Shown in pieces: positions 10,288-16,174 of a DNA stretch of 64,000 nucleotides (its first letter is position 1; each line of letters starts with the position of its first letter). Both the position numbers and the translations under genes were made by a program. Source of the stretch: an uncultured Verrucomicrobiae bacterium (lineage in GTDB: Bacteria > Verrucomicrobiota > Verrucomicrobiia > Chthoniobacterales > Chthoniobacteraceae); contig CAVYKI010000003.1 of NCBI GenBank assembly GCA_963769025.1, positions 640,001 to 704,000 on the forward strand, in the 5' to 3' direction. The notes beneath the pieces were generated by a model, which had not been told where the DNA came from, ran no database searches, and worked only from the letters and a program-made list of their open reading frames with translations.

Positions 10288-11055
10288 ATGCAACTGAACC
10301 TCGATGGACAGAAGGTCGCCGTCATCGGCGCGGGGCGCGGCATCGGCCGCGCGATTGCCGAGGGCTTCGTGGCGGAGCGGTGCGAGGTGTGGACGTTCGA
10401 CCGCGACCCGGATGCGGCGCCGTTCGGCCATGCGAACGTCACCGGCGACGTGACGCGCTACGAGGAGGTGCGCGCATTTGCCGAGCGCACCGGCGAGGTG
10501 GATCACGTCGTGTTTTCGGTCGGCGCCGGCTCGGGGAAATTCGGGTTCCCATTTTGGAACCTGGAACCCGCGGACTGGGCGCGCGTGCTGGAGATCAACC
10601 TCATCGGCGCGGTGAACACGGCGCATGCCTTCGCGCCGAAGCTCATTGCGCGCGGCAAGGGCTCGATGCTGTTTCTCGTCTCCGTCGCGGGCCAGATCGG
10701 TTCGCAGACCGACCCGCCGTACAGCGCGGCAAAGGCGGGCCTCATCAATTTCACGCAGTGCGCGGCGAAGGATCTCGCGCCGCACGGCATCCGCGTGAAT
10801 GCGCTCTCGCCGGGCATGGTGAAGACGGACCTGAACCAAGCCGTCTGGCAGGCCGGGCAGGCGAATCTCCCACCATCCGCGCGGCAGGATTACGCAGTCT
10901 GGGCCGAGGAAAAAATCCGCAAGGTGTCACCGCTCGGACGCTGGCAGACGCCGCCGGAATTCGCCGCGATGGCCGTTTTCCTCGCCTCCGATCACGCGAA
11001 AAACATCACCGGCCAGACCCTCAATATCGACGGCGGCCAGGTGATGCACGCCTAG
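10288..11055 (+). CDS. Short-chain dehydrogenase/reductase (SDR)
   Basis: GAGRGIG, YSAAK, NALSPG, ITGQTLNIDGG. Confidence 0.95.
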   Translation: MQLNLDGQKVAVIGAGRGIGRAIAEGFVAERCEVWTFDRDPDAAPFGHANVTGDVTRYEEVRAFAERTGEVDHVVFSVGAGSGKFGFPFWNLEPADWARVLEINLIGAVNTAHAFAPKLIARGKGSMLFLVSVAGQIGSQTDPPYSAAKAGLINFTQCAAKDLAPHGIRVNALSPGMVKTDLNQAVWQAGQANLPPSARQDYAVWAEEKIRKVSPLGRWQTPPEFAAMAVFLASDHAKNITGQTLNIDGGQVMHA

Positions 11056-11074
11056 CGGATTGGACCGCTTTTTT
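11054..11074 (+). terminator. Putative intrinsic terminator after the SDR
   Basis: AGCGG-attgga-CCGCT hairpin followed by TTTTT at the SDR stop codon. The stem is short. Confidence 0.5.
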
Positions 11075-11140
11075 GGGTTGCATGAACATGACTGGTTTTA
11101 GAGCCTTGGCGCCGCAGGAACTTAACCGGGAAACCAAACC

Positions 11141-12859
11141 ATGAAAACTTCGCGCATCCTCCTTGCATCCATCCACCTCTTTGCGGCGTTCGCCGTCATC
11201 GCCCACGCCGATGACGGTTTTATTTTTTCCACCACGGGGGATGGCCTGAGATGGCGGGCGCCTGTCACGTGGCCCTCGGTTCACCTGCGCATCACCGGCG
11301 ACAAGATTGCTCCTTTCGAGCAAACCGTCGGTTCATCGAGCCAGTTTTCGGTGCCTCTCAGCGGACCGGGCGGGCCAGCCCTGCCGGACGGGGTTTACAA
11401 GTGGGAAGTGGTCGGGCAGCCGGTGATGAGCCCGGCATTGGCCCAGAGCCTCTCCGCCGCCCGAAAAGCGGGCAACGACGCCGCAGCCGCGAGCATTCTG
11501 GCTGCCGCAAACCTGCCCCAAGGCGTCCGGACCTCCGGGGCGTTCAGTGTCCTCAACGGGAAGCTCGTGCCAGCCGACGCGGAGGAGCCTGCCGCCCAGC
11601 AAGCCGCGGCGCCCGCCGGGAATCTTGCCCAAAGCGGTCCGCTCATTCCTCTCTCCGGCGTCGTAGCGCCGGATTCGGTGACCAATGACGACCTGATCGT
11701 GATTGGCAGCCTCGCGGTCGGTCAAGATGCCATAAATGGCGAAAACTTCGGATTCGACACTTTCCGCCTGAAGGAAAACAACCTGCGCATCCATTTTGAC
11801 GACACGAGCAACACCGCCTCGTTTCCCGCCAACGACTGGAGAATTGTCATCAACGACACCACCAACGGAGGTGGCAGTTTTTTCGCCATCGAGGACTCCA
11901 CTGCCAACCGGACGCCCTTTAAAATCGAGGCGGGCGCCAAAACCAATGCCCTCGTCGTCGACGACGCCAGTCGTGTGGGCATTGGCACTGGCACCCCTGT
12001 GGTGAACCTGCACATCGTCACTGGCAATACTCCGACCGCACGGCTGGATCAGGACGGCTCCTCCGGGTTTACGCCGCAGGTTTGGGACATGGCTGGCAAT
12101 GAAACCAATTTCTTCATCCGTGACGTCACCAACGGTTCGAGGCTGCCCTTCCGGATCCGCCCCAACGCGCCGACGAGCAGCATCGATATCGCCGGTAGCG
12201 GCAACGTGGGCTTGGGAACGTCCGCTCCGGCGACAAGACTCCACCTGCAGTCGACTAACACTGACATCGCACTCCGCATCCAGCAGACCGCTGGGACCGT
12301 TCCTTCGAGTTGGGATTTTACCAACAACTCAGCAACGGGACGCCTGAATATCACCGACGACACGACATCCATGCGGATCCCCTTCAAGATGGGCCCCGGT
12401 GCGCCCAATAATCTGTTTCGGATCGGCATTCCCGCCGTGAACACCGTGGAAGTGAACGGCACCCTGACCGTGAATGGGACCTTCAACAACCTGTCGAGCC
12501 GTGAGTTCAAGAATATCGTGCCGGGCGTCGATAGCGCTTCGGTTTTGGAAAAAATCGCCAGCCTGCCGCTTTTCACATGGTCGTACAAGGATAGCAATGG
12601 GGAGCGCCACTTCGGCCCCGTGGCCGAGGATTTCTATGCGCATTTCCAGCTCGGGACGGATGAGAAACACATCTCGCCAAACGACATGGCGGGAGTCGCG
12701 CTGGGCGCGATCAAGGGCCTCCATGAGCAGCTCCGGGAGCGGGATGCCCAGATCAAGACCCTGCGCCAGAAGAGCGACACGCTCGAACAGCAGATGAAGG
12801 CGCTGACCGAAGCGGTCGAAGCATTGAAGGTGGGAAGCCCTACGAAAGCCTCGCCCTAA
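11141..12859 (+). CDS. Secreted tail-fibre-like protein with three beta-rich repeats, C-terminal peptidase S74 (intramolecular chaperone) domain and coiled coil
   Basis: Signal peptide ending AVIAHA. Three W..F/L.I.D.T...PF.I/M repeats, two followed by VGI/LGT..P. S74 motifs SSREFK, LP..TWSYK, HFGPVAEDF, D..GVAL.AIK.L, then a heptad coiled coil. Confidence 0.85.
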   Translation: MKTSRILLASIHLFAAFAVIAHADDGFIFSTTGDGLRWRAPVTWPSVHLRITGDKIAPFEQTVGSSSQFSVPLSGPGGPALPDGVYKWEVVGQPVMSPALAQSLSAARKAGNDAAAASILAAANLPQGVRTSGAFSVLNGKLVPADAEEPAAQQAAAPAGNLAQSGPLIPLSGVVAPDSVTNDDLIVIGSLAVGQDAINGENFGFDTFRLKENNLRIHFDDTSNTASFPANDWRIVINDTTNGGGSFFAIEDSTANRTPFKIEAGAKTNALVVDDASRVGIGTGTPVVNLHIVTGNTPTARLDQDGSSGFTPQVWDMAGNETNFFIRDVTNGSRLPFRIRPNAPTSSIDIAGSGNVGLGTSAPATRLHLQSTNTDIALRIQQTAGTVPSSWDFTNNSATGRLNITDDTTSMRIPFKMGPGAPNNLFRIGIPAVNTVEVNGTLTVNGTFNNLSSREFKNIVPGVDSASVLEKIASLPLFTWSYKDSNGERHFGPVAEDFYAHFQLGTDEKHISPNDMAGVALGAIKGLHEQLRERDAQIKTLRQKSDTLEQQMKALTEAVEALKVGSPTKASP

Positions 12860-12875
12860 AGCGGCGTTCGCGCTG

Positions 12876-15800
12876 ATGATCGCGCATGGAAAGTGGGAAT
12901 GCGGCGTGCATTTGCTGACGGGCGTCGCGCTCGCCTGGCTGGGAGCGGGACAGCTGGGCGCGCAGAACGCGGTCGATCCGATCCTCGGCTCGATCCGGCA
13001 GCTCGAGGATAAGAGCGATCCCAAGTGCCATGCCACCGCATCGCGGCTGGAGAACTTCATGTTCGGAACGCCGCTCACCGACGCGGTGCGTTTCCAGAAA
13101 AACGGGTATCTGAAGGAGTTCATCCGCGGCGCATGGGCACGGGCTTCGGAGCTTGCCCGCGAGCAGAATGCGACGGAAATCGACGCGGCGGTGATGACGA
13201 AGGCCTTCGCCTCCGAACCGGAAGTCGTGGAGGAAAAAGGCGAGTTCGTGGTCAAGACCTCGCCGGCTCCGATCCGCATTGGTTCGCGTGACAAGCGCCA
13301 GTATTCCAGCGTGGCTTACGCGCTTCGCGCCATCCTGGCGGTCCAGCAGGAGGCTTCGCTGAGCGAAGGCCGCCTGTCGCTCGTGCCGCTCAAGCCGGAG
13401 GCCGTCGCGGCGCTCAAGGAGCGGGCCGACATCTATGTGCTCGCTTTGCTCAATCTCGCCGATCGCCATGCGCGAAAGGAAGTTCGCTTTGAGATCGGCC
13501 CCGGGGACATGGAGCAAGGCTGGAAGGAACTCGGCCTGACGGGCACTCCCGCGCCAAAGTCCGGCCCGTCGAAGACCGGCAAGGATTCGCTGCTGCGGGC
13601 CGTCATCACCCAGAAAGTCGCATCCTTTGCGGCTTACAATCAGGTTTCCAACGAGCTGTTTGTGCGGAACCTCCAGGTCTATTTTGCCAAGCGGCGGTGG
13701 CCGGAAACGGCGGAGCAGGGAAAGCAGGTGAAGGATTTTTTTGTAAATGCAGTCGTGGGTTTTGGCGCTGCACTCTACGAAGCGGCCCAGGAGCGTGCGC
13801 GGACCCGGGGCGACACCCTGGTGAGGGAGGAGGATGTCTTCGACGCAGTGCAGCGTTTCACGCCCTATAGCGTCAACGAATACGAGGATGTGGTCTTTTT
13901 CCCACGCTTGGAAAAGGAGCGGCTGACGATCGAGGCGTACGACTTGGATTCATTCCGGGACAGCGGGTTCCACTGGACCTATCTCGGTTTCGCGCTCGAT
14001 GACATGGGAGGCAAACTGGCGATCGATGCGGATCCCTTCGCGGCTGAATTGCTCTCCGAGTCCATCGCGCAGTTCGGAGTGCTGCTGCTTCGGATGGCCG
14101 GCCAGGTCGCGATCGATGCCTCGCAGGAGAGGCTCTCGATTTCCGCCTTTGAGTCCGCGATGACCGAGATGCAGCGGCGCATCGTTCTGCACGGCGAGGC
14201 GCCGCTCCGGAAACCCAAGGAAGTGGCAATCGCGTCTTCTGCGACGCCGCGCGAATCGTCCACGGGGGCCAGGTTTTTTTCCGACGTCACGACTGAGGCT
14301 GGGATCCAGTTCGAGCACCGTTCCTCGGATTGGCTCTCGCGTCTCCTGAGAGGCTATCTGACGAAGCCGGACGGGAAAGGAGTCATCACAATCCCGCCGG
14401 CCTTTGGAGGTGCCGGACTTGCCGCCGAGGACATCGACAACGACGGCGACATCGACCTGATCGTTCTCAGCGGAGCCGGCAACCGCCTTTACCTGAACGA
14501 TGGAAAGGGCGTCTTCACCGATGCGACCGCGACCTCAGGGCTCGACTGGCGCCGTCCGGACGGTCACCCCGGCGAGCCGCGCCAGCCGATCATTGCCGAC
14601 TTTGACAATGACGGCATCCAGGACGTGCTCATCACCTACGTGGACGATGCCCACCGGCTTTATATGGGGCTTGGGAATGGCCGGTTCAAGGACGTCACCG
14701 ATGGGTGCGCCCTCGGCGGCCAAGGCGTGGTGGGCGGCCCGGTCACCGTGCTCGACGTGGACAAGGATGGCCTGCTGGATATCTACCTCGGTTACTTCGG
14801 CGATTATCCCCGCGGGGTGCTGCCGACGCTCGCGCGGCGCAACCGGAATGGCTTGCCGAACAAATTGTTCCGAAATCTCGGGGGCATGCGCTTTGAAGAC
14901 ATTTCCGAAAAAAGCGGGACGGCCGACCGGGGCTGGGCGCAGTCGGTCGGGCATACCGACTTCGATGGGGACGGATGGCAGGACATCATCGTGGGAAATG
15001 ATTTCGGGGTGAACGTGTACTACCGGAACCGGCACGACGGCACCTTTGAGGATGTCGCCGAAAAAATGGGTGCCTCCAAGCCGTCCTTTACCATGGGAAT
15101 CGGCATCGCGGATCTGAACCGGGATGGCATCCCTGACATCTACATCGCCAACATCGTGACGATGAACAAGGATCAGAAATATGTCCTGCCCACCGAGGAC
15201 ACGGTCCAGACGTTCGACCTGCGCAAGCTGGCGAACATGCGCGTGGTGGAAGCCAACGACCTCTTCATCTCGACGCGCGGCGCAAGCGGGCTTCCCCGTT
15301 ACGAACTCTCGAATCTGGTGGACCGGGGCTATTCCTCCACGGGGTGGTCGTGGGGCGCGGATTTCTTCGATTTCGACCACGATGGCGACGAGGATCTCTA
15401 CGTGCTCAACGGCATGAACGACTTCAACGTCTATGGCCGGGAAAACCCCTATTACACGGACCCGCACAGCGATCAGAAAGTAGCGGTCACCTTCCCGCCC
15501 AGTCAGCGGGAAAAGAATGTGCTTTTCATCAACGACGCCGGCCGGTTCCAGGACGCGAGCGATCAGAGCGGGCTCGACATCCTTTCCAACTCCAGGAGCG
15601 CCGCCTACTTCGACTTTGACGGGGATGGCGACCTCGATATCGCCATCAACAACTATCACGGACCGGCGGTCCTGTTTCGCAATAACACCAATTCCAGAGC
15701 CGGTTCATGGCTGAGCATCCGCCTCACCGGCGACCCCAAGCGGGGAGTCTCCCGCGACGCGATCGGCGCCACCGTCCTCGTCAGCGGCGAAAAACTGAAG

Positions 15801-16013
15801 AACATCTGGCGCGAAGTCCACACGACCACCGGCTATCTCACCGGGCACCCGAAGGAGCAGCATTTTGGCGTCGGCCACGAGAAGGCGCTCTCCGCCGAAG
15901 TGCGCTGGCCCGACGGTCAGGTGCAGCGCTTTGCCGACGTGAAACCCGGGATGCGCTACCGGTTGGTTCAAGGCCAGAAACTCGAGGCCTCGACACCGGA
16001 CGATCCGCGTTGA
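12876..16013 (+). CDS. Secreted protein: four putative histone folds + FG-GAP beta-propeller + ASPIC/UnbV domain (CRTAC1-like)
   Basis: Hydrophobic N-terminus. Four alpha1-L1-alpha2-L2-alpha3-like units in aa ~52-435. Seven DxDxDG-type Ca-binding loops (DIDNDGDID, DFDNDGIQD, DVDKDGLLD, DFDGDGWQD, DLNRDGIPD, DFDHDGDED, DFDGDGDLD). UnbV motifs DAIGATV, HFGVG and VRWPDG. Confidence 0.85.
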   Translation: MIAHGKWECGVHLLTGVALAWLGAGQLGAQNAVDPILGSIRQLEDKSDPKCHATASRLENFMFGTPLTDAVRFQKNGYLKEFIRGAWARASELAREQNATEIDAAVMTKAFASEPEVVEEKGEFVVKTSPAPIRIGSRDKRQYSSVAYALRAILAVQQEASLSEGRLSLVPLKPEAVAALKERADIYVLALLNLADRHARKEVRFEIGPGDMEQGWKELGLTGTPAPKSGPSKTGKDSLLRAVITQKVASFAAYNQVSNELFVRNLQVYFAKRRWPETAEQGKQVKDFFVNAVVGFGAALYEAAQERARTRGDTLVREEDVFDAVQRFTPYSVNEYEDVVFFPRLEKERLTIEAYDLDSFRDSGFHWTYLGFALDDMGGKLAIDADPFAAELLSESIAQFGVLLLRMAGQVAIDASQERLSISAFESAMTEMQRRIVLHGEAPLRKPKEVAIASSATPRESSTGARFFSDVTTEAGIQFEHRSSDWLSRLLRGYLTKPDGKGVITIPPAFGGAGLAAEDIDNDGDIDLIVLSGAGNRLYLNDGKGVFTDATATSGLDWRRPDGHPGEPRQPIIADFDNDGIQDVLITYVDDAHRLYMGLGNGRFKDVTDGCALGGQGVVGGPVTVLDVDKDGLLDIYLGYFGDYPRGVLPTLARRNRNGLPNKLFRNLGGMRFEDISEKSGTADRGWAQSVGHTDFDGDGWQDIIVGNDFGVNVYYRNRHDGTFEDVAEKMGASKPSFTMGIGIADLNRDGIPDIYIANIVTMNKDQKYVLPTEDTVQTFDLRKLANMRVVEANDLFISTRGASGLPRYELSNLVDRGYSSTGWSWGADFFDFDHDGDEDLYVLNGMNDFNVYGRENPYYTDPHSDQKVAVTFPPSQREKNVLFINDAGRFQDASDQSGLDILSNSRSAAYFDFDGDGDLDIAINNYHGPAVLFRNNTNSRAGSWLSIRLTGDPKRGVSRDAIGATVLVSGEKLKNIWREVHTTTGYLTGHPKEQHFGVGHEKALSAEVRWPDGQVQRFADVKPGMRYRLVQGQKLEASTPDDPR

Positions 16014-16174
16014 TCCTCTCCCGCAAACATCGCGTCGCGGAGCGTTGACGAGCCCGCCGCCGCGATCCGGACCCAGTCAAAATCGAGGATCAGCGTGCAC
16101 GGTTCATCGATGGAAATGCCGCCGGCGTCGGGGGATTCGGCGCGTTGGTCCGGCGAGCACGCACGCCCGTCCGA

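What the first reader, a model, noticed from the sequence alone, without database searches (positions are those of the whole stretch)
11141..16013. Two-gene module: autocleaving trimeric fibre protein + exported histone-fold/propeller protein
Seen: the genes are co-directional with a 16-nt gap, both have export-signal-like N-termini, and they follow a terminator. Both lack frameshifts and look less GC-rich than the flanking metabolic genes (by eye). No phage genes are nearby. Inference: a horizontally acquired surface or secreted apparatus. The propeller/histone protein could anchor, assemble or be displayed with the S74-matured fibre, for adhesion, extracellular DNA capture or contact-dependent interaction. 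This is the best candidate for an undescribed system in the window.
Basis: inference. Interest (0 to 1): 0.85.

Follow-up and report, generated by a model that had tools for sequence, protein, structure and literature searches.

The report
Exported fibre plus histone-fold propeller pair
Two neighbouring genes for exported proteins, a short self-cleaving trimeric fibre and a propeller protein that carries four histone folds, form an acquired pair whose families turn up together in several bacterial phyla, which points to a shared but still unknown role at the cell surface.

Summary
Gene 1 (11141-12859, 572 aa) is a Sec-type exported, short fibre of the Bdellovibrio MAT kind. It has an FN3-like N-domain, a flexible linker, a beta-helix core and a C-terminal S74 self-cleaving chaperone domain with an invariant Ser452/Lys457.

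Gene 2 (12876-16013, 1045 aa) is an exported CRTAC1-type FG-GAP propeller with an ASPIC domain. Its 450-aa N-terminal domain has no Pfam match. A confident AlphaFold2 model shows it as four tandem histone folds, that is two double-histone-fold units that arose by internal duplication. The domain is acidic, so DNA binding is unlikely.

The pair sits between two genes that are adjacent in some genus-mates. Neither gene was found in 40 relatives, and the pair has lower GC than the genome. This fits horizontal acquisition.

Among 80 loci from other genomes that encode the histone-fold domain, 36 have a gene-1-type fibre within 8 kb. These span Pseudomonadota, Acidobacteriota, Verrucomicrobiota and Bacteroidota. 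74 of 79 such genomes have the fibre somewhere.

The link is one-sided: only 2 of 76 fibre loci have the histone-fold protein nearby. I read gene 2 as an accessory partner of the fibre, possibly its dock. Neither this architecture nor the pairing appeared in the papers I searched.

The parts
11054..11079 (+). Terminator-like hairpin plus T-run directly after the upstream SDR gene. It marks the left edge of the inserted segment.
   Evidence: stem 11054-11069, then TTTTTGGGTT. Similarity to genus-mates ends right after the SDR stop codon.
11141..12859 (+). Gene 1: exported short trimeric fibre of the MAT kind with a C-terminal S74 domain (572 aa).
   Evidence: ORF. Pfam S74. PDB sequence hit to the Bd2133 fibre, E 3.6e-5. 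Foldseek hit to Bd2133, E 1.3e-6. Hits to tail-fibre PHROGs.
11141..11209 (+). Signal peptide of gene 1 (aa 1-23, ...AHA|DD).
   Evidence: Read from the sequence. Helix 3-18 in the model. Cleavage is inferred.
11222..11569 (+). FN3-like beta-sandwich N-terminal domain of gene 1 (aa 28-143). The same domain is a separate small secreted protein in Alteromonadales loci.
   Evidence: pLDDT 90-95. FN3 matches at E about 1e-2, TMt 0.5-0.7. hhalign against the small ORF family: Prob 96.3, E 1.5e-9.
11588..11665 (+). Flexible Ala/Pro/Gln-rich linker (aa 150-175).
   Evidence: pLDDT about 40.
11666..12493 (+). Fibre core and tip (aa 176-451). Beta-helix repeats with two capping-loop-like motifs, VGIGTGTPVVNL at 279 and VGLGTSAPATRL at 356. 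aa 176-420 is the part most conserved across phyla.
   Evidence: 51-69% identity to the linked fibres whose tblastn match is confined to the core. Motifs. Matches to Bd2133 and Bd3182. Internal repeat seen as overlapping HSPs.
12494..12859 (+). S74 intramolecular chaperone and self-cleavage domain (aa 452-572) with a long C-terminal helix, plus the stop codon. The predicted cleavage site is at Ser452.
   Evidence: Pfam PF13884. S452 and K457 (SSREFK) are invariant in 106 sequences. pLDDT 88-96 and helix 513-564. MyRF ICA domain match, TMt 0.58. Cleavage itself is inferred.
12860..12875 (+). 16-nt intergenic gap with no terminator-like site.
12876..16013 (+). Gene 2: exported protein made of four histone folds, a flexible linker, an FG-GAP propeller and an ASPIC domain (1045 aa).
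12876..12965 (+). Signal-peptide-like N-terminus of gene 2 (aa 1 to about 30). An alternative start is GTG 12906.
   Evidence: Sequence. N-termini of homologues.
13029..13532 (+). First double histone fold (protein aa 52-219; HF1 52-113, beta hairpin, HF2 148-219).
   Evidence: Model. VIA-align: 1wwi Z 10.8 (rmsd 3.2, 144 aa), 7n8n_D Z 10.6, 1f1e Z 10.0, 1r4v Z 9.2. Foldseek: histone doublets at prob 1.00.
13650..14198 (+). Second double histone fold (protein aa 259-441; HF3 259-328, beta hairpin, HF4 365-441).
   Evidence: Same helix-loop-helix pattern in the model. hhalign of first half against second half: Prob 87.5, E 3.6e-6, 143 columns. Weak HMfB match at profile positions 259-297. The fold search gave no strong match of its own for this half.
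14199..14315 (+). Flexible linker between the histone-fold module and the propeller (aa 442-480).
   Evidence: pLDDT 57-61.
14316..15758 (+). FG-GAP/VCBS beta-propeller region with Ca-binding-type DxDxDG repeats (aa 481-961).
   Evidence: Pfam FG-GAP_3 E 8.7e-44 (5 stretches) and FG-GAP E 3.7e-15. Blade number was not determined.
15759..15959 (+). UnbV_ASPIC domain (aa 962-1028).
   Evidence: Pfam PF07593, E 5e-14.

Best explanation
This is a horizontally acquired pair of genes for exported proteins that work together outside the cytoplasm.

Gene 1 makes a short fibre of the kind called MAT (mosaic adhesive trimeric) in Bdellovibrio. After Sec export, three chains fold into a beta-helical fibre. 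The C-terminal S74 domain guides trimerisation, then cuts itself off at Ser452 and exposes the tip. An FN3-like domain hangs on a flexible linker at the other end.

Gene 2 makes an acidic scaffold of four histone folds (two double histone folds) tied by a flexible linker to an integrin-like FG-GAP propeller with an ASPIC domain.

The histone-fold/propeller family almost never occurs without a fibre of this family, and the two genes often sit side by side. I therefore read gene 2 as an accessory partner of the fibre. Most likely it is a docking or assembly platform that holds or positions the fibre, and in other genomes other large adhesins, at the cell envelope. The histone folds would serve as a protein-protein scaffold, not a DNA binder, and the propeller as a Ca-dependent binding head.

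Shown by tool results: the domain identities, the insertion, and the co-occurrence and linkage. Inferred: export, trimerisation and cleavage, any physical contact, and the surface location.
For: Identity of the parts.

Acquisition:
- Neither gene was found in 24 same-genus and 16 same-order genomes.
- The histone-fold domain was found in 1 of 400 other genomes of the phylum.
- The SDR and HIBADH-like flanking genes lie about 117 bp apart in G015 and about 735 bp apart in G024, against 5.1 kb here.
- GC is in the lowest 4.9% of genome windows.

Linkage:
- 36 of 80 loci holding the histone-fold domain have a gene-1-type fibre within the flanks of up to 8 kb. By group: Gamma 18/33, Acidobacteriota 8/33, Verrucomicrobiota 4/4, Alpha 2/2, Beta 2/4, Bacteroidota 2/2, Planctomycetota 0/1, 'Delta' 0/1.
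- 23 of the 36 lie within 1.5 kb. Among 46 loci with at least 5 kb on both sides, 22 have the fibre.
- My arithmetic for chance: with 1-7 copies per genome of 2.6-11.8 Mb, at most about 4% per locus.

Genome-level co-occurrence: 47 of 50 plus 27 of 29 genomes.

In the phylum sample, the one other genome with gene 2 (G324) also has the fibre core about 2 kb away (my estimate from the match coordinates). Only 2 of the 399 genomes without gene 2 have the core.

Fusion and fission: the N-domain of gene 1 is a separate secreted ORF between the fibre gene and gene 2 in 8 Alteromonadales loci.

The own genome has exactly one S74 gene and one histone-fold-domain gene, and they are adjacent.

Surface context elsewhere: giant DUF7933/Ig-like proteins with OmpA-like or IPTL-CTERM ends lie in 23 of 80 loci, and a PEP-CTERM protein in L011 and L030.

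From the MAT paper (PMC10769870, passages read): the cell-surface element that holds MAT fibres is still unidentified.
Against: - No test of binding was possible.
- 44 of 80 loci show no fibre within the flanks. 24 of these have at least 5 kb on both sides.
- The common arrangement is divergent, so it is not one operon (25 of 36).
- The reverse link is weak. Only 2 of 76 metagenome loci with gene-1-type fibres have the histone-fold domain nearby, and 1 of the 21 with at least 4 kb on each side. The fibre clearly works without gene 2 in most organisms.
- 11 of 30 linked fibres lack a Pfam S74 match.
- Related genomes are not independent samples.
- The second double histone fold rests on the model's secondary structure and on hhalign, not on a strong structural match of its own.
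- Both proteins have only Sec-type signals. How they would cross an outer membrane is unknown.
- Expression is unknown.
Confidence: 0.55

Rival explanations
1. The two genes are independent accessory surface or secreted proteins. They tend to ride in the same variable islands and have no direct functional tie.
For: - The fibre family is far more widespread and mostly lacks gene 2 nearby (2 of 76 loci).
- Orientation and spacing vary.
- Other surface genes (DUF7933 giants, PEP-CTERM proteins) share these loci.
- The insertion site is a variable spot that holds unrelated cargo in G014 (DUF885 plus MFS).
Against: - 74 of 79 genomes with gene 2 have the fibre.
- The genes are adjacent in four phyla.
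- The sole other carrier in the phylum has both genes about 2 kb apart.
- In 8 Alteromonadales loci the split-off fibre N-domain ORF lies between the fibre gene and gene 2.
Confidence: 0.22
2. Gene 2 is functionally coupled to the fibre but does not bind it. It binds or modifies the same external target, for example a polysaccharide or matrix component, using the propeller and a conserved pocket in the histone-fold module.
For: - The histone-fold domain has many invariant polar and aromatic residues, including a single invariant Cys (K-C-H/Y-A motif), R, D, E, H and W. This looks like a ligand site.
- FG-GAP propellers are binding heads in integrins (established knowledge).
- Three fibre loci have CRTAC1-type proteins without the histone folds nearby.
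Against: - No match to any enzyme family.
- No known catalytic histone fold.
- Nothing identifies a ligand.
Confidence: 0.15
3. The histone folds capture extracellular DNA. This was one of the first reader's ideas.
For: - The fold is the one used by histones.
- One JGI record of a homologue is named 'histone H3/H4'.
Against: - The domain is acidic: pI 5.5, with 57 K+R against 65 D+E.
- It has no significant sequence match to DNA-binding histones (E 0.24-0.26).
- The closest structural relatives, 1wwi and 1r4v, are said to lack the DNA-binding residues (review PMC13088155, passages read).
Confidence: 0.05
4. The pair is a remnant of a prophage tail-fibre module.
For: S74 and tail-fibre PHROG matches for gene 1. 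110 viral contigs encode a relative of the S74 part.
Against: - No phage or mobile-element family among 20 neighbouring ORFs.
- In all 80 viral loci kept, only the region from aa 358 onward matches, never the fibre core.
- The histone-fold domain has no relative in the viral collection.
- Both proteins carry signal peptides.
Confidence: 0.03

Closest known systems
Bdellovibrio bacteriovorus MAT (mosaic adhesive trimeric) fibres, S74 subgroup (Caulton et al. 2024, PMC10769870; structures 8OND, 8ONC, 8OJN)
   Same: - Signal peptide, then a beta-rich N-terminal domain, then beta-helix repeats with capping-loop motifs of the V-G-x-G-x-x-P-x-x-x-L type, then a C-terminal S74 domain with a Ser/Lys dyad.
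- Sequence match to Bd2133 at E 3.6e-5 and fold match at E 1.3e-6.
   Different: - Gene 1 is about half the length (572 against about 1000 aa).
- Its N-domain is FN3-like and sits on a flexible linker. Its homology to the MAT N-domain was not tested.
- The host is not known to be a predator.
- In the passages of that paper that I read, no partner protein is described.
Phage S74 tail fibres and spikes (K1F endosialidase, T5 L-shaped fibre) and MyRF
   Same: C-terminal intramolecular chaperone with a self-cleaving Ser-Lys dyad. Pfam PF13884. MyRF ICA fold match, TMt 0.58.
   Different: - The gene is cellular, with a Sec signal and no phage neighbours.
- The fibre core was not found in viral contigs.
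- The motif reads SSREFK, not SDxxxK.
CRTAC1 / ASPIC / UnbV family of FG-GAP propeller proteins
   Same: FG-GAP_3 repeats plus a C-terminal UnbV_ASPIC domain. Named homologues in public records are called 'CRTAC1 family protein'.
   Different: - It carries a 450-aa N-terminal module of four histone folds that Pfam and NCBIfam do not model.
- This subfamily is small: 405 clusters at 50% identity among 1.84 billion representatives.
- It is tied to fibre genes.
Bacterial double-histone-fold proteins (Thermus 1WWI, Aquifex 1R4V; DUF1931) and other histone doublets (M. kandleri 1F1E, Marseillevirus 7N8N, SOS 1Q9C, Spt3)
   Same: Two histone folds in one chain forming a pseudodimer. VIA-align Z 10.8 to 7.7 over about 127-149 residues.
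   Different: - Here the doublet is itself duplicated (four folds).
- It is preceded by a signal peptide.
- It has a beta hairpin between the folds.
- It is acidic.
- It is fused to a propeller.
- The known examples are cytoplasmic or nuclear (recalled knowledge). The two histone papers I checked have no mention of secretion or FG-GAP.

Membership tests
Peptidase S74 (intramolecular chaperone auto-processing domain) | Match to the family profile above its curated cut-off | tested here: met
   PF13884, 29 bits against a cut-off of 22, aa 452-502. Also found in the genome-wide search.
Peptidase S74 (intramolecular chaperone auto-processing domain) | Catalytic Ser with a Lys five residues downstream (SDxxxK in PMC10769870) | tested here: met
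   S452 and K457 (SSREFK) are invariant in 106 aligned sequences. The Asp of the motif is Ser here.
Peptidase S74 (intramolecular chaperone auto-processing domain) | C-terminal position after a trimeric beta-helical fibre, with the fold of solved ICA domains | tested here: met
   MyRF ICA domain 7dc3: E 5.5e-3, TMt 0.58. Fibre matches lie upstream of it. The trimer itself was not modelled.
Peptidase S74 (intramolecular chaperone auto-processing domain) | Autoproteolytic release of the domain | not testable with these tools
   Needs expression of the wild type and an S452A mutant, followed by SDS-PAGE.
MAT fibres (Caulton et al. 2024) | Beta-helix fibre region related to Bd2133 and Bd3182, with capping loops | tested here: met
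   phmmer E 3.6e-5 to 8OND. Foldseek E 1.3e-6 and 7e-4. Two motif copies.
MAT fibres (Caulton et al. 2024) | Conserved beta-rich domain of about 130 aa right after the signal peptide, homologous among MATs | not tested
   Gene 1 has a beta-rich domain at aa 28-143, but no MAT N-domain sequence was on hand to compare it with.
MAT fibres (Caulton et al. 2024) | Location on the cell surface | not testable with these tools
   Only a Sec-type signal is seen.
CRTAC1 / ASPIC family | FG-GAP/VCBS repeats followed by a UnbV_ASPIC domain | tested here: met
   FG-GAP_3 E 8.7e-44, FG-GAP E 3.7e-15, UnbV_ASPIC E 5e-14.
Histone fold (double histone fold) | Helix-loop-long helix-loop-helix units paired into a pseudodimer | tested here: met
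   The AlphaFold2 model has four such units. First doublet: Z 10.8, 10.6, 10.2 and 10.0 to histone doublets, Foldseek prob 1.00. Second doublet: supported by hhalign E 3.6e-6 to the first.
Histone fold (double histone fold) | Significant sequence match to histone families | tested here: not met
   No Pfam match at E<=10. CENP-X E 0.24 and HMfB E 0.26 only.
DNA-binding histones | Basic DNA-binding surface | tested here: not met
   pI 5.5; 57 K+R against 65 D+E. The surface was not mapped residue by residue.
Anti-phage defence systems (PADLOC) | Match to any PADLOC model | tested here: not met
   No match for either protein at E<=0.01.

The most novel reading that the evidence does not exclude
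The exported four-histone-fold module is a new extracytoplasmic use of the histone fold. It is the docking platform that holds MAT-type trimeric fibres, and other large adhesins, on the cell envelope. That would make it the kind of surface element that the Bdellovibrio MAT paper says is still unidentified. The tethered integrin-like propeller would give the assembly a second, Ca-dependent binding head.
Probability: 0.2. Interest if true: 0.8.

Novelty: new variant of a known kind. Interest (0 to 1): 0.64.

Why it matters
Histone folds are known as DNA-packaging or nuclear and cytoplasmic scaffold modules. A conserved, signal-peptide-bearing family with four of them fused to an integrin-like propeller would extend the fold to the outside of the bacterial cell.

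The family has at least 405 clusters at 50% identity and is found in at least four phyla.

Its tie to MAT-type fibres gives a concrete candidate for a question the Bdellovibrio work left open: what holds these fibres, and what works with them? Several culturable carriers of the module exist, so the idea can be tested at the bench.

Tried and rejected
- Complex prediction (gene 2 histone-fold domain with the gene 1 N-domain and core) was not available. Nothing was folded.
- No RNA holder was listed for the module, so co-transcription across the gap could not be looked at.
- The search of earlier findings returned nothing by place or by sequence.
- The ESM Atlas gave no usable hit for the histone-fold domain.
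- NCBIfam gave no family for either protein.
- PADLOC gave none.
- An HMM of the small Alteromonadales ORF did not hit gene 1 directly. Only the profile-profile comparison did.
- I first assumed that all four Verrucomicrobial relatives had a DUF7933 giant gene beside the pair. That holds only for L016 and L065. L011 and L030 instead have a PEP-CTERM protein and a phosphodiesterase/TPR/sulfotransferase protein.
- The own genome has no DUF7933 match (the genome is 83% complete).
- Six-frame ORF clustering was confounded by long antisense ORFs in high-GC loci. I therefore counted fibres by tblastn instead.
- Fibres in 43 metagenome loci of at least 6 kb have no dominant conserved neighbour. The largest cluster that is not the fibre or its antisense ORFs covers 8 loci and is a housekeeping gene, RodA/FtsW.
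- Literature searches for 'histone fold' with 'FG-GAP' (one unrelated paper) and for 'Peptidase_S74' with 'UnbV_ASPIC' (none) found no description. The library lacks most subscription journals.
Full report
**What is there.**
The two ORFs are as described: 11141..12859 (572 aa) and 12876..16013 (1045 aa). They lie on the same strand, 16 nt apart, with no internal stops. The window is G000:C3:640001-704000.

The neighbours from 0.5 to 30.6 kb are ordinary metabolic and transport genes. On the left are PfkB, a sugar ABC system, a 2-hydroxyacid dehydrogenase, a 3-keto-disaccharide hydrolase, SelO and an SDR. On the right are an HIBADH-like dehydrogenase, an epimerase, PntA/PntB and others. None of the 20 ORFs scanned matched a phage or mobile-element family.

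A terminator-like hairpin with a T-run follows the SDR gene (11054-11079). Such sites are not enriched as a class in the region: 10 against 6.6 +/- 3.0 in shuffles.

**Gene 1.**
- Pfam finds Peptidase_S74 at aa 452-502 (29 bits, cut-off 22).
- In an alignment of 106 family members, Ser452 and Lys457 (SSREFK) are invariant. They match the Ser...Lys dyad of the SDxxxK motif given in PMC10769870 (passages read).
- The sequence matches the solved Bdellovibrio fibre Bd2133 (8OND, E 3.6e-5, aa 232-409).
- The AlphaFold2 monomer model has mean pLDDT 78 and pTM 0.41. Its best Foldseek matches are Bd2133 (E 1.3e-6), the Bd3182 beta-helix (E 7e-4), the MyRF ICA domain (E 5.5e-3, TMt 0.58) and FN3 domains (E about 1e-2).
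- The model gives five parts: a signal helix; a confident beta-sandwich domain at aa 28-143 (pLDDT 90-95); a disordered linker at 150-175; a beta-rich core; and a confident S74 domain ending in a long helix at 513-564.
- Two capping-loop-like motifs lie at residues 279 and 356.

Gene 1 is therefore a short fibre of the MAT kind. Trimerisation and self-cleavage are inferred from the family, not shown.

**Gene 2.**
- The C-terminal half is a CRTAC1-type protein: FG-GAP_3 E 8.7e-44 and UnbV_ASPIC E 5e-14.
- The first 480 residues match no Pfam family even at E<=10 and no NCBIfam family.
- With an alignment of 120 sequences, AlphaFold2 gives a confident model of aa 32-481 (pLDDT 90.6, pTM 0.89).
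- Its helices fall into four units of short helix, loop, 28-32-residue helix, loop, short helix. A beta hairpin follows units 1 and 3.
- Foldseek's best matches are all single-chain histone pairs: H2A-H2B chimeras, M. kandleri 1f1e, Thermus 1wwi and Melbournevirus (prob 1.00, E from 1.1e-3, TMt 0.5-0.66).
- VIA-align against 48,161 chains gives 1wwi Z 10.8 (rmsd 3.2, 144 aa), 7n8n_D Z 10.6, 8uqe_B Z 10.2, 1f1e Z 10.0, 1r4v Z 9.2, Spt3 Z 8.5 and SOS Z 7.7. All cover model residues about 20-193.
- The second half gets only weak matches of its own in that list. A profile-profile comparison of the two halves gives Prob 87.5 and E 3.6e-6 over 143 columns, so the module is a duplicated double histone fold.
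- The sequence profile has only faint histone matches: CENP-X E 0.24 and HMfB E 0.26.
- The domain is acidic (pI 5.5; 57 K+R against 65 D+E) and has one Cys, which is invariant.
- A low-confidence linker (aa 442-480) joins it to the propeller.
- Most homologues have signal-peptide-like N-termini: 91 of 118 by a crude rule.

**Acquisition.**
- Each gene is single-copy in the genome. Gene 1 is the only S74 gene there.
- Neither gene was found in 24 same-genus and 16 same-order genomes. One genome (G016) had only a 34% match to the S74 end.
- In a sample of 400 other genomes of the phylum, the histone-fold domain was found in one (G324) and the fibre core in three (G239, G277, G324).
- A DNA search of the genus shows the SDR and HIBADH-like genes about 117 bp apart in G015 and about 735 bp apart in G024. 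They are 2 kb apart in G010 and 3.9 kb apart in G014, where the spot holds DUF885 and MFS genes. Here they are 5.1 kb apart.
- Similarity to the genus-mates ends right after the SDR stop codon.
- The module's GC is 0.615 against 0.645 +/- 0.017 (z -1.75, lowest 4.9% of 1087 windows). Its GC3 is 0.75-0.79 against 0.82-0.89 in the flanks.

Together this fits an insertion at a variable spot. A deletion in the relatives is not excluded.

**Are the two genes linked elsewhere?**
The histone-fold-plus-propeller architecture is a compact family:
- more than 503 hits in the word-indexed search, almost all about 1000-1100 aa with the same Pfam content;
- 405 clusters at E<=1e-3 among 1.84 billion representatives, where complete members are about 980-1120 aa and the shorter ones look like fragments.

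A scan of one genome per species found 232 relatives, and 80 loci were kept. tblastn with gene 1 finds a homologue in the flanks (up to 8 kb) of 36 of these 80 loci:

| Group | Loci with fibre / loci |
|---|---|
| Gammaproteobacteria | 18/33 |
| Acidobacteriota | 8/33 |
| Verrucomicrobiota | 4/4 |
| Alphaproteobacteria | 2/2 |
| Betaproteobacteria | 2/4 |
| Bacteroidota | 2/2 |
| Planctomycetota | 0/1 |
| 'Deltaproteobacteria' | 0/1 |

- By position, 25 are upstream and divergent, 6 upstream and co-directional, and 5 downstream.
- 23 of the 36 lie within 1.5 kb.
- Of 46 loci with at least 5 kb on both sides, 22 have the fibre.
- Only Persicirhabdus (L065) repeats the window's order, with 22 nt between the matched regions.
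- I assigned the group labels by hand from the record titles.

At genome level, 47 of 50 and 27 of 29 genomes holding gene 2 relatives have a gene-1-family match at E<=1e-10, with 1-7 matches each. One of these genomes (G513, locus L084) is unpublished and enters only these counts.

My arithmetic for chance: with at most 7 copies in a genome of at least 2.6 Mb and 16 kb of flank, chance gives at most about 4% per locus, against 45% seen.

In G324, the only other carrier in the phylum sample, the fibre core lies about 2 kb from gene 2 on the same strand (my estimate from the coordinates).

**What exactly is conserved?**
- Of 30 linked fibres scanned, 19 carry S74 and 11 do not. The 11 include short forms of about 305-311 aa, and a Flavobacteriales form has a T9SS sorting tail.
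- I dropped six of the 36 from that scan: two with in-frame stops (L036, L071) and four cut by contig ends or with over-long ORF calls (L056, L064, L066, L067).
- The shared part is the core, aa about 176-420. It is 51-69% identical in the loci whose match is confined to the core.
- In 8 Alteromonadales loci a small secreted ORF of 153-175 aa lies between the fibre gene and gene 2; in a ninth locus (L055) its family sits just downstream of gene 2, beside the fibre gene. It is homologous to the N-terminal domain of gene 1 (hhalign Prob 96.3, E 1.5e-9, 105 columns).
- So the same three pieces occur either fused or split.
- Other recurrent neighbours are giant DUF7933/Ig-like surface proteins, in 23 of 80 loci, some with OmpA-like or IPTL-CTERM ends. 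The own genome has none (83% complete).
- Thermoanaerobaculia loci without the fibre share an M48 peptidase and MacB/HlyD genes. This looks like lineage synteny.

**The reverse test.**
- A scan of metagenome contigs with the gene 1 alignment found 608 relatives, and 76 loci were kept.
- Only 2 of the 76 (L214, L226) have the histone-fold domain in the flanks. Of the 21 loci with at least 4 kb on each side, 1 does.
- No other neighbour dominates in the 43 loci of at least 6 kb.
- Three further loci have CRTAC1-type proteins without histone folds.

So the link is one-sided. The histone-fold/propeller protein nearly always comes with a fibre, but most fibres come without it.

**Phage origin.**
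- In the viral collection the histone-fold domain has no relative.
- Gene 1 matches viral contigs only from aa 358 onward, mostly aa 440-557, which is the S74 part (80 of 80 loci kept).
- PHROGs gives tail-fibre families for gene 1 (E 3.7e-8).
- PADLOC gives nothing.

**Reading.**
I take the pair as an acquired, exported module in which gene 2 is an accessory partner of the fibre.

A docking or assembly role is the most economical idea, for two reasons. The MAT paper says the surface element that holds such fibres is unidentified (PMC10769870, passages read). And known double histone folds outside chromatin serve as protein scaffolds (review PMC13088155, passages read).

This step is inference.

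Rival readings are given with odds in the Rival explanations section:
- the two are independent island cargo;
- they share an external target without touching each other;
- the histone folds capture DNA;
- the pair is a phage remnant.

**Novelty.**
- The review of double histone folds (PMC13088155) and the survey of prokaryotic histones (PMC11390915) contain no occurrence of 'FG-GAP', 'secreted' or 'signal peptide' (term searches, not full reads).
- 'histone fold' with 'FG-GAP' finds one unrelated paper.
- 'Peptidase_S74' with 'UnbV_ASPIC' finds none.
- The library lacks most subscription journals, and I saw no supplements.

Within those limits, I did not find in print either the exported four-histone-fold architecture or its tie to MAT-type fibres.

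Noticed in passing
window 11056-16174 compared with L096 (G015:C21), L099 (G024:C615), L098 (G010:C505), L097 (G014:C6): The spot between the SDR and the HIBADH-like genes varies within the genus. It is nearly empty in G015 and G024. G010 has about 2 kb with no Pfam match. G014 has 3.9 kb holding DUF885 and MFS genes.
   Followed up: partly
window 12906: A GTG 30 nt inside gene 2 lines up with the start of the closest homologue, P0002 (84% identical). It is preceded by a GGA/GGGA-rich stretch. The true start of gene 2, and so the size of the gap, is uncertain.
   Followed up: no
L004 (G324:C1:2384423-2385727): The only other gene 2 homologue in the phylum sample has one in-frame TGA inside the matched histone-fold domain. 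This could be a pseudogene, a sequencing error or a recoding event.
   Followed up: no
L036, L043, L045, L053, L061, L063, L077, L083 (about 2.3-3.3 kb downstream of gene 2); also in L031 and L055 at other positions: Mainly Alteromonadales loci share a further conserved ORF of about 310-346 aa with no Pfam match. It lies on the opposite strand between gene 2 and a DUF7933 giant gene (cluster 11). It may be a further part of the locus.
   Followed up: no
L011 2504-7812 and L030 2337-7808: In two Verrucomicrobiia MAGs, three genes lie between the fibre gene and gene 2: a 375-aa ORF with no family, a PEP-CTERM protein, and a 1000-aa protein with phosphodiesterase/sulfatase, TPR and sulfotransferase matches.
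   Followed up: partly
L036 3351-5498 and L071 1978-7173: The tblastn-extended gene-1-type matches next to gene 2 contain in-frame stops (one and two). In L036 the stop is the end of the small N-domain ORF, read in the same frame as the fibre. In L071 the fibre gene may be broken or the frame over-extended.
   Followed up: no
L025, L027, L028, L032-L035, L040, L049, L052, L057 and others: In Thermoanaerobaculia and other Acidobacteriota, an M48/CAAX-type peptidase gene sits directly upstream of gene 2 on the same strand (16 loci). In five of them MacB-type ABC and HlyD genes lie further upstream.
   Followed up: partly
L185, L199, L230: Some gene-1-type fibre loci from metagenomes have CRTAC1-type FG-GAP/ASPIC proteins of 600-771 aa without the histone-fold module in their flanks. 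Such proteins are common, so this may be chance.
   Followed up: no
gene 2 aa 51 (window 13026-13028): The single Cys of the histone-fold module (in the motif P-K-C-H/Y-A-T-A) is invariant in 120 sequences of an exported domain. It lies beside invariant E, K and R residues. Its role is unknown.
   Followed up: no
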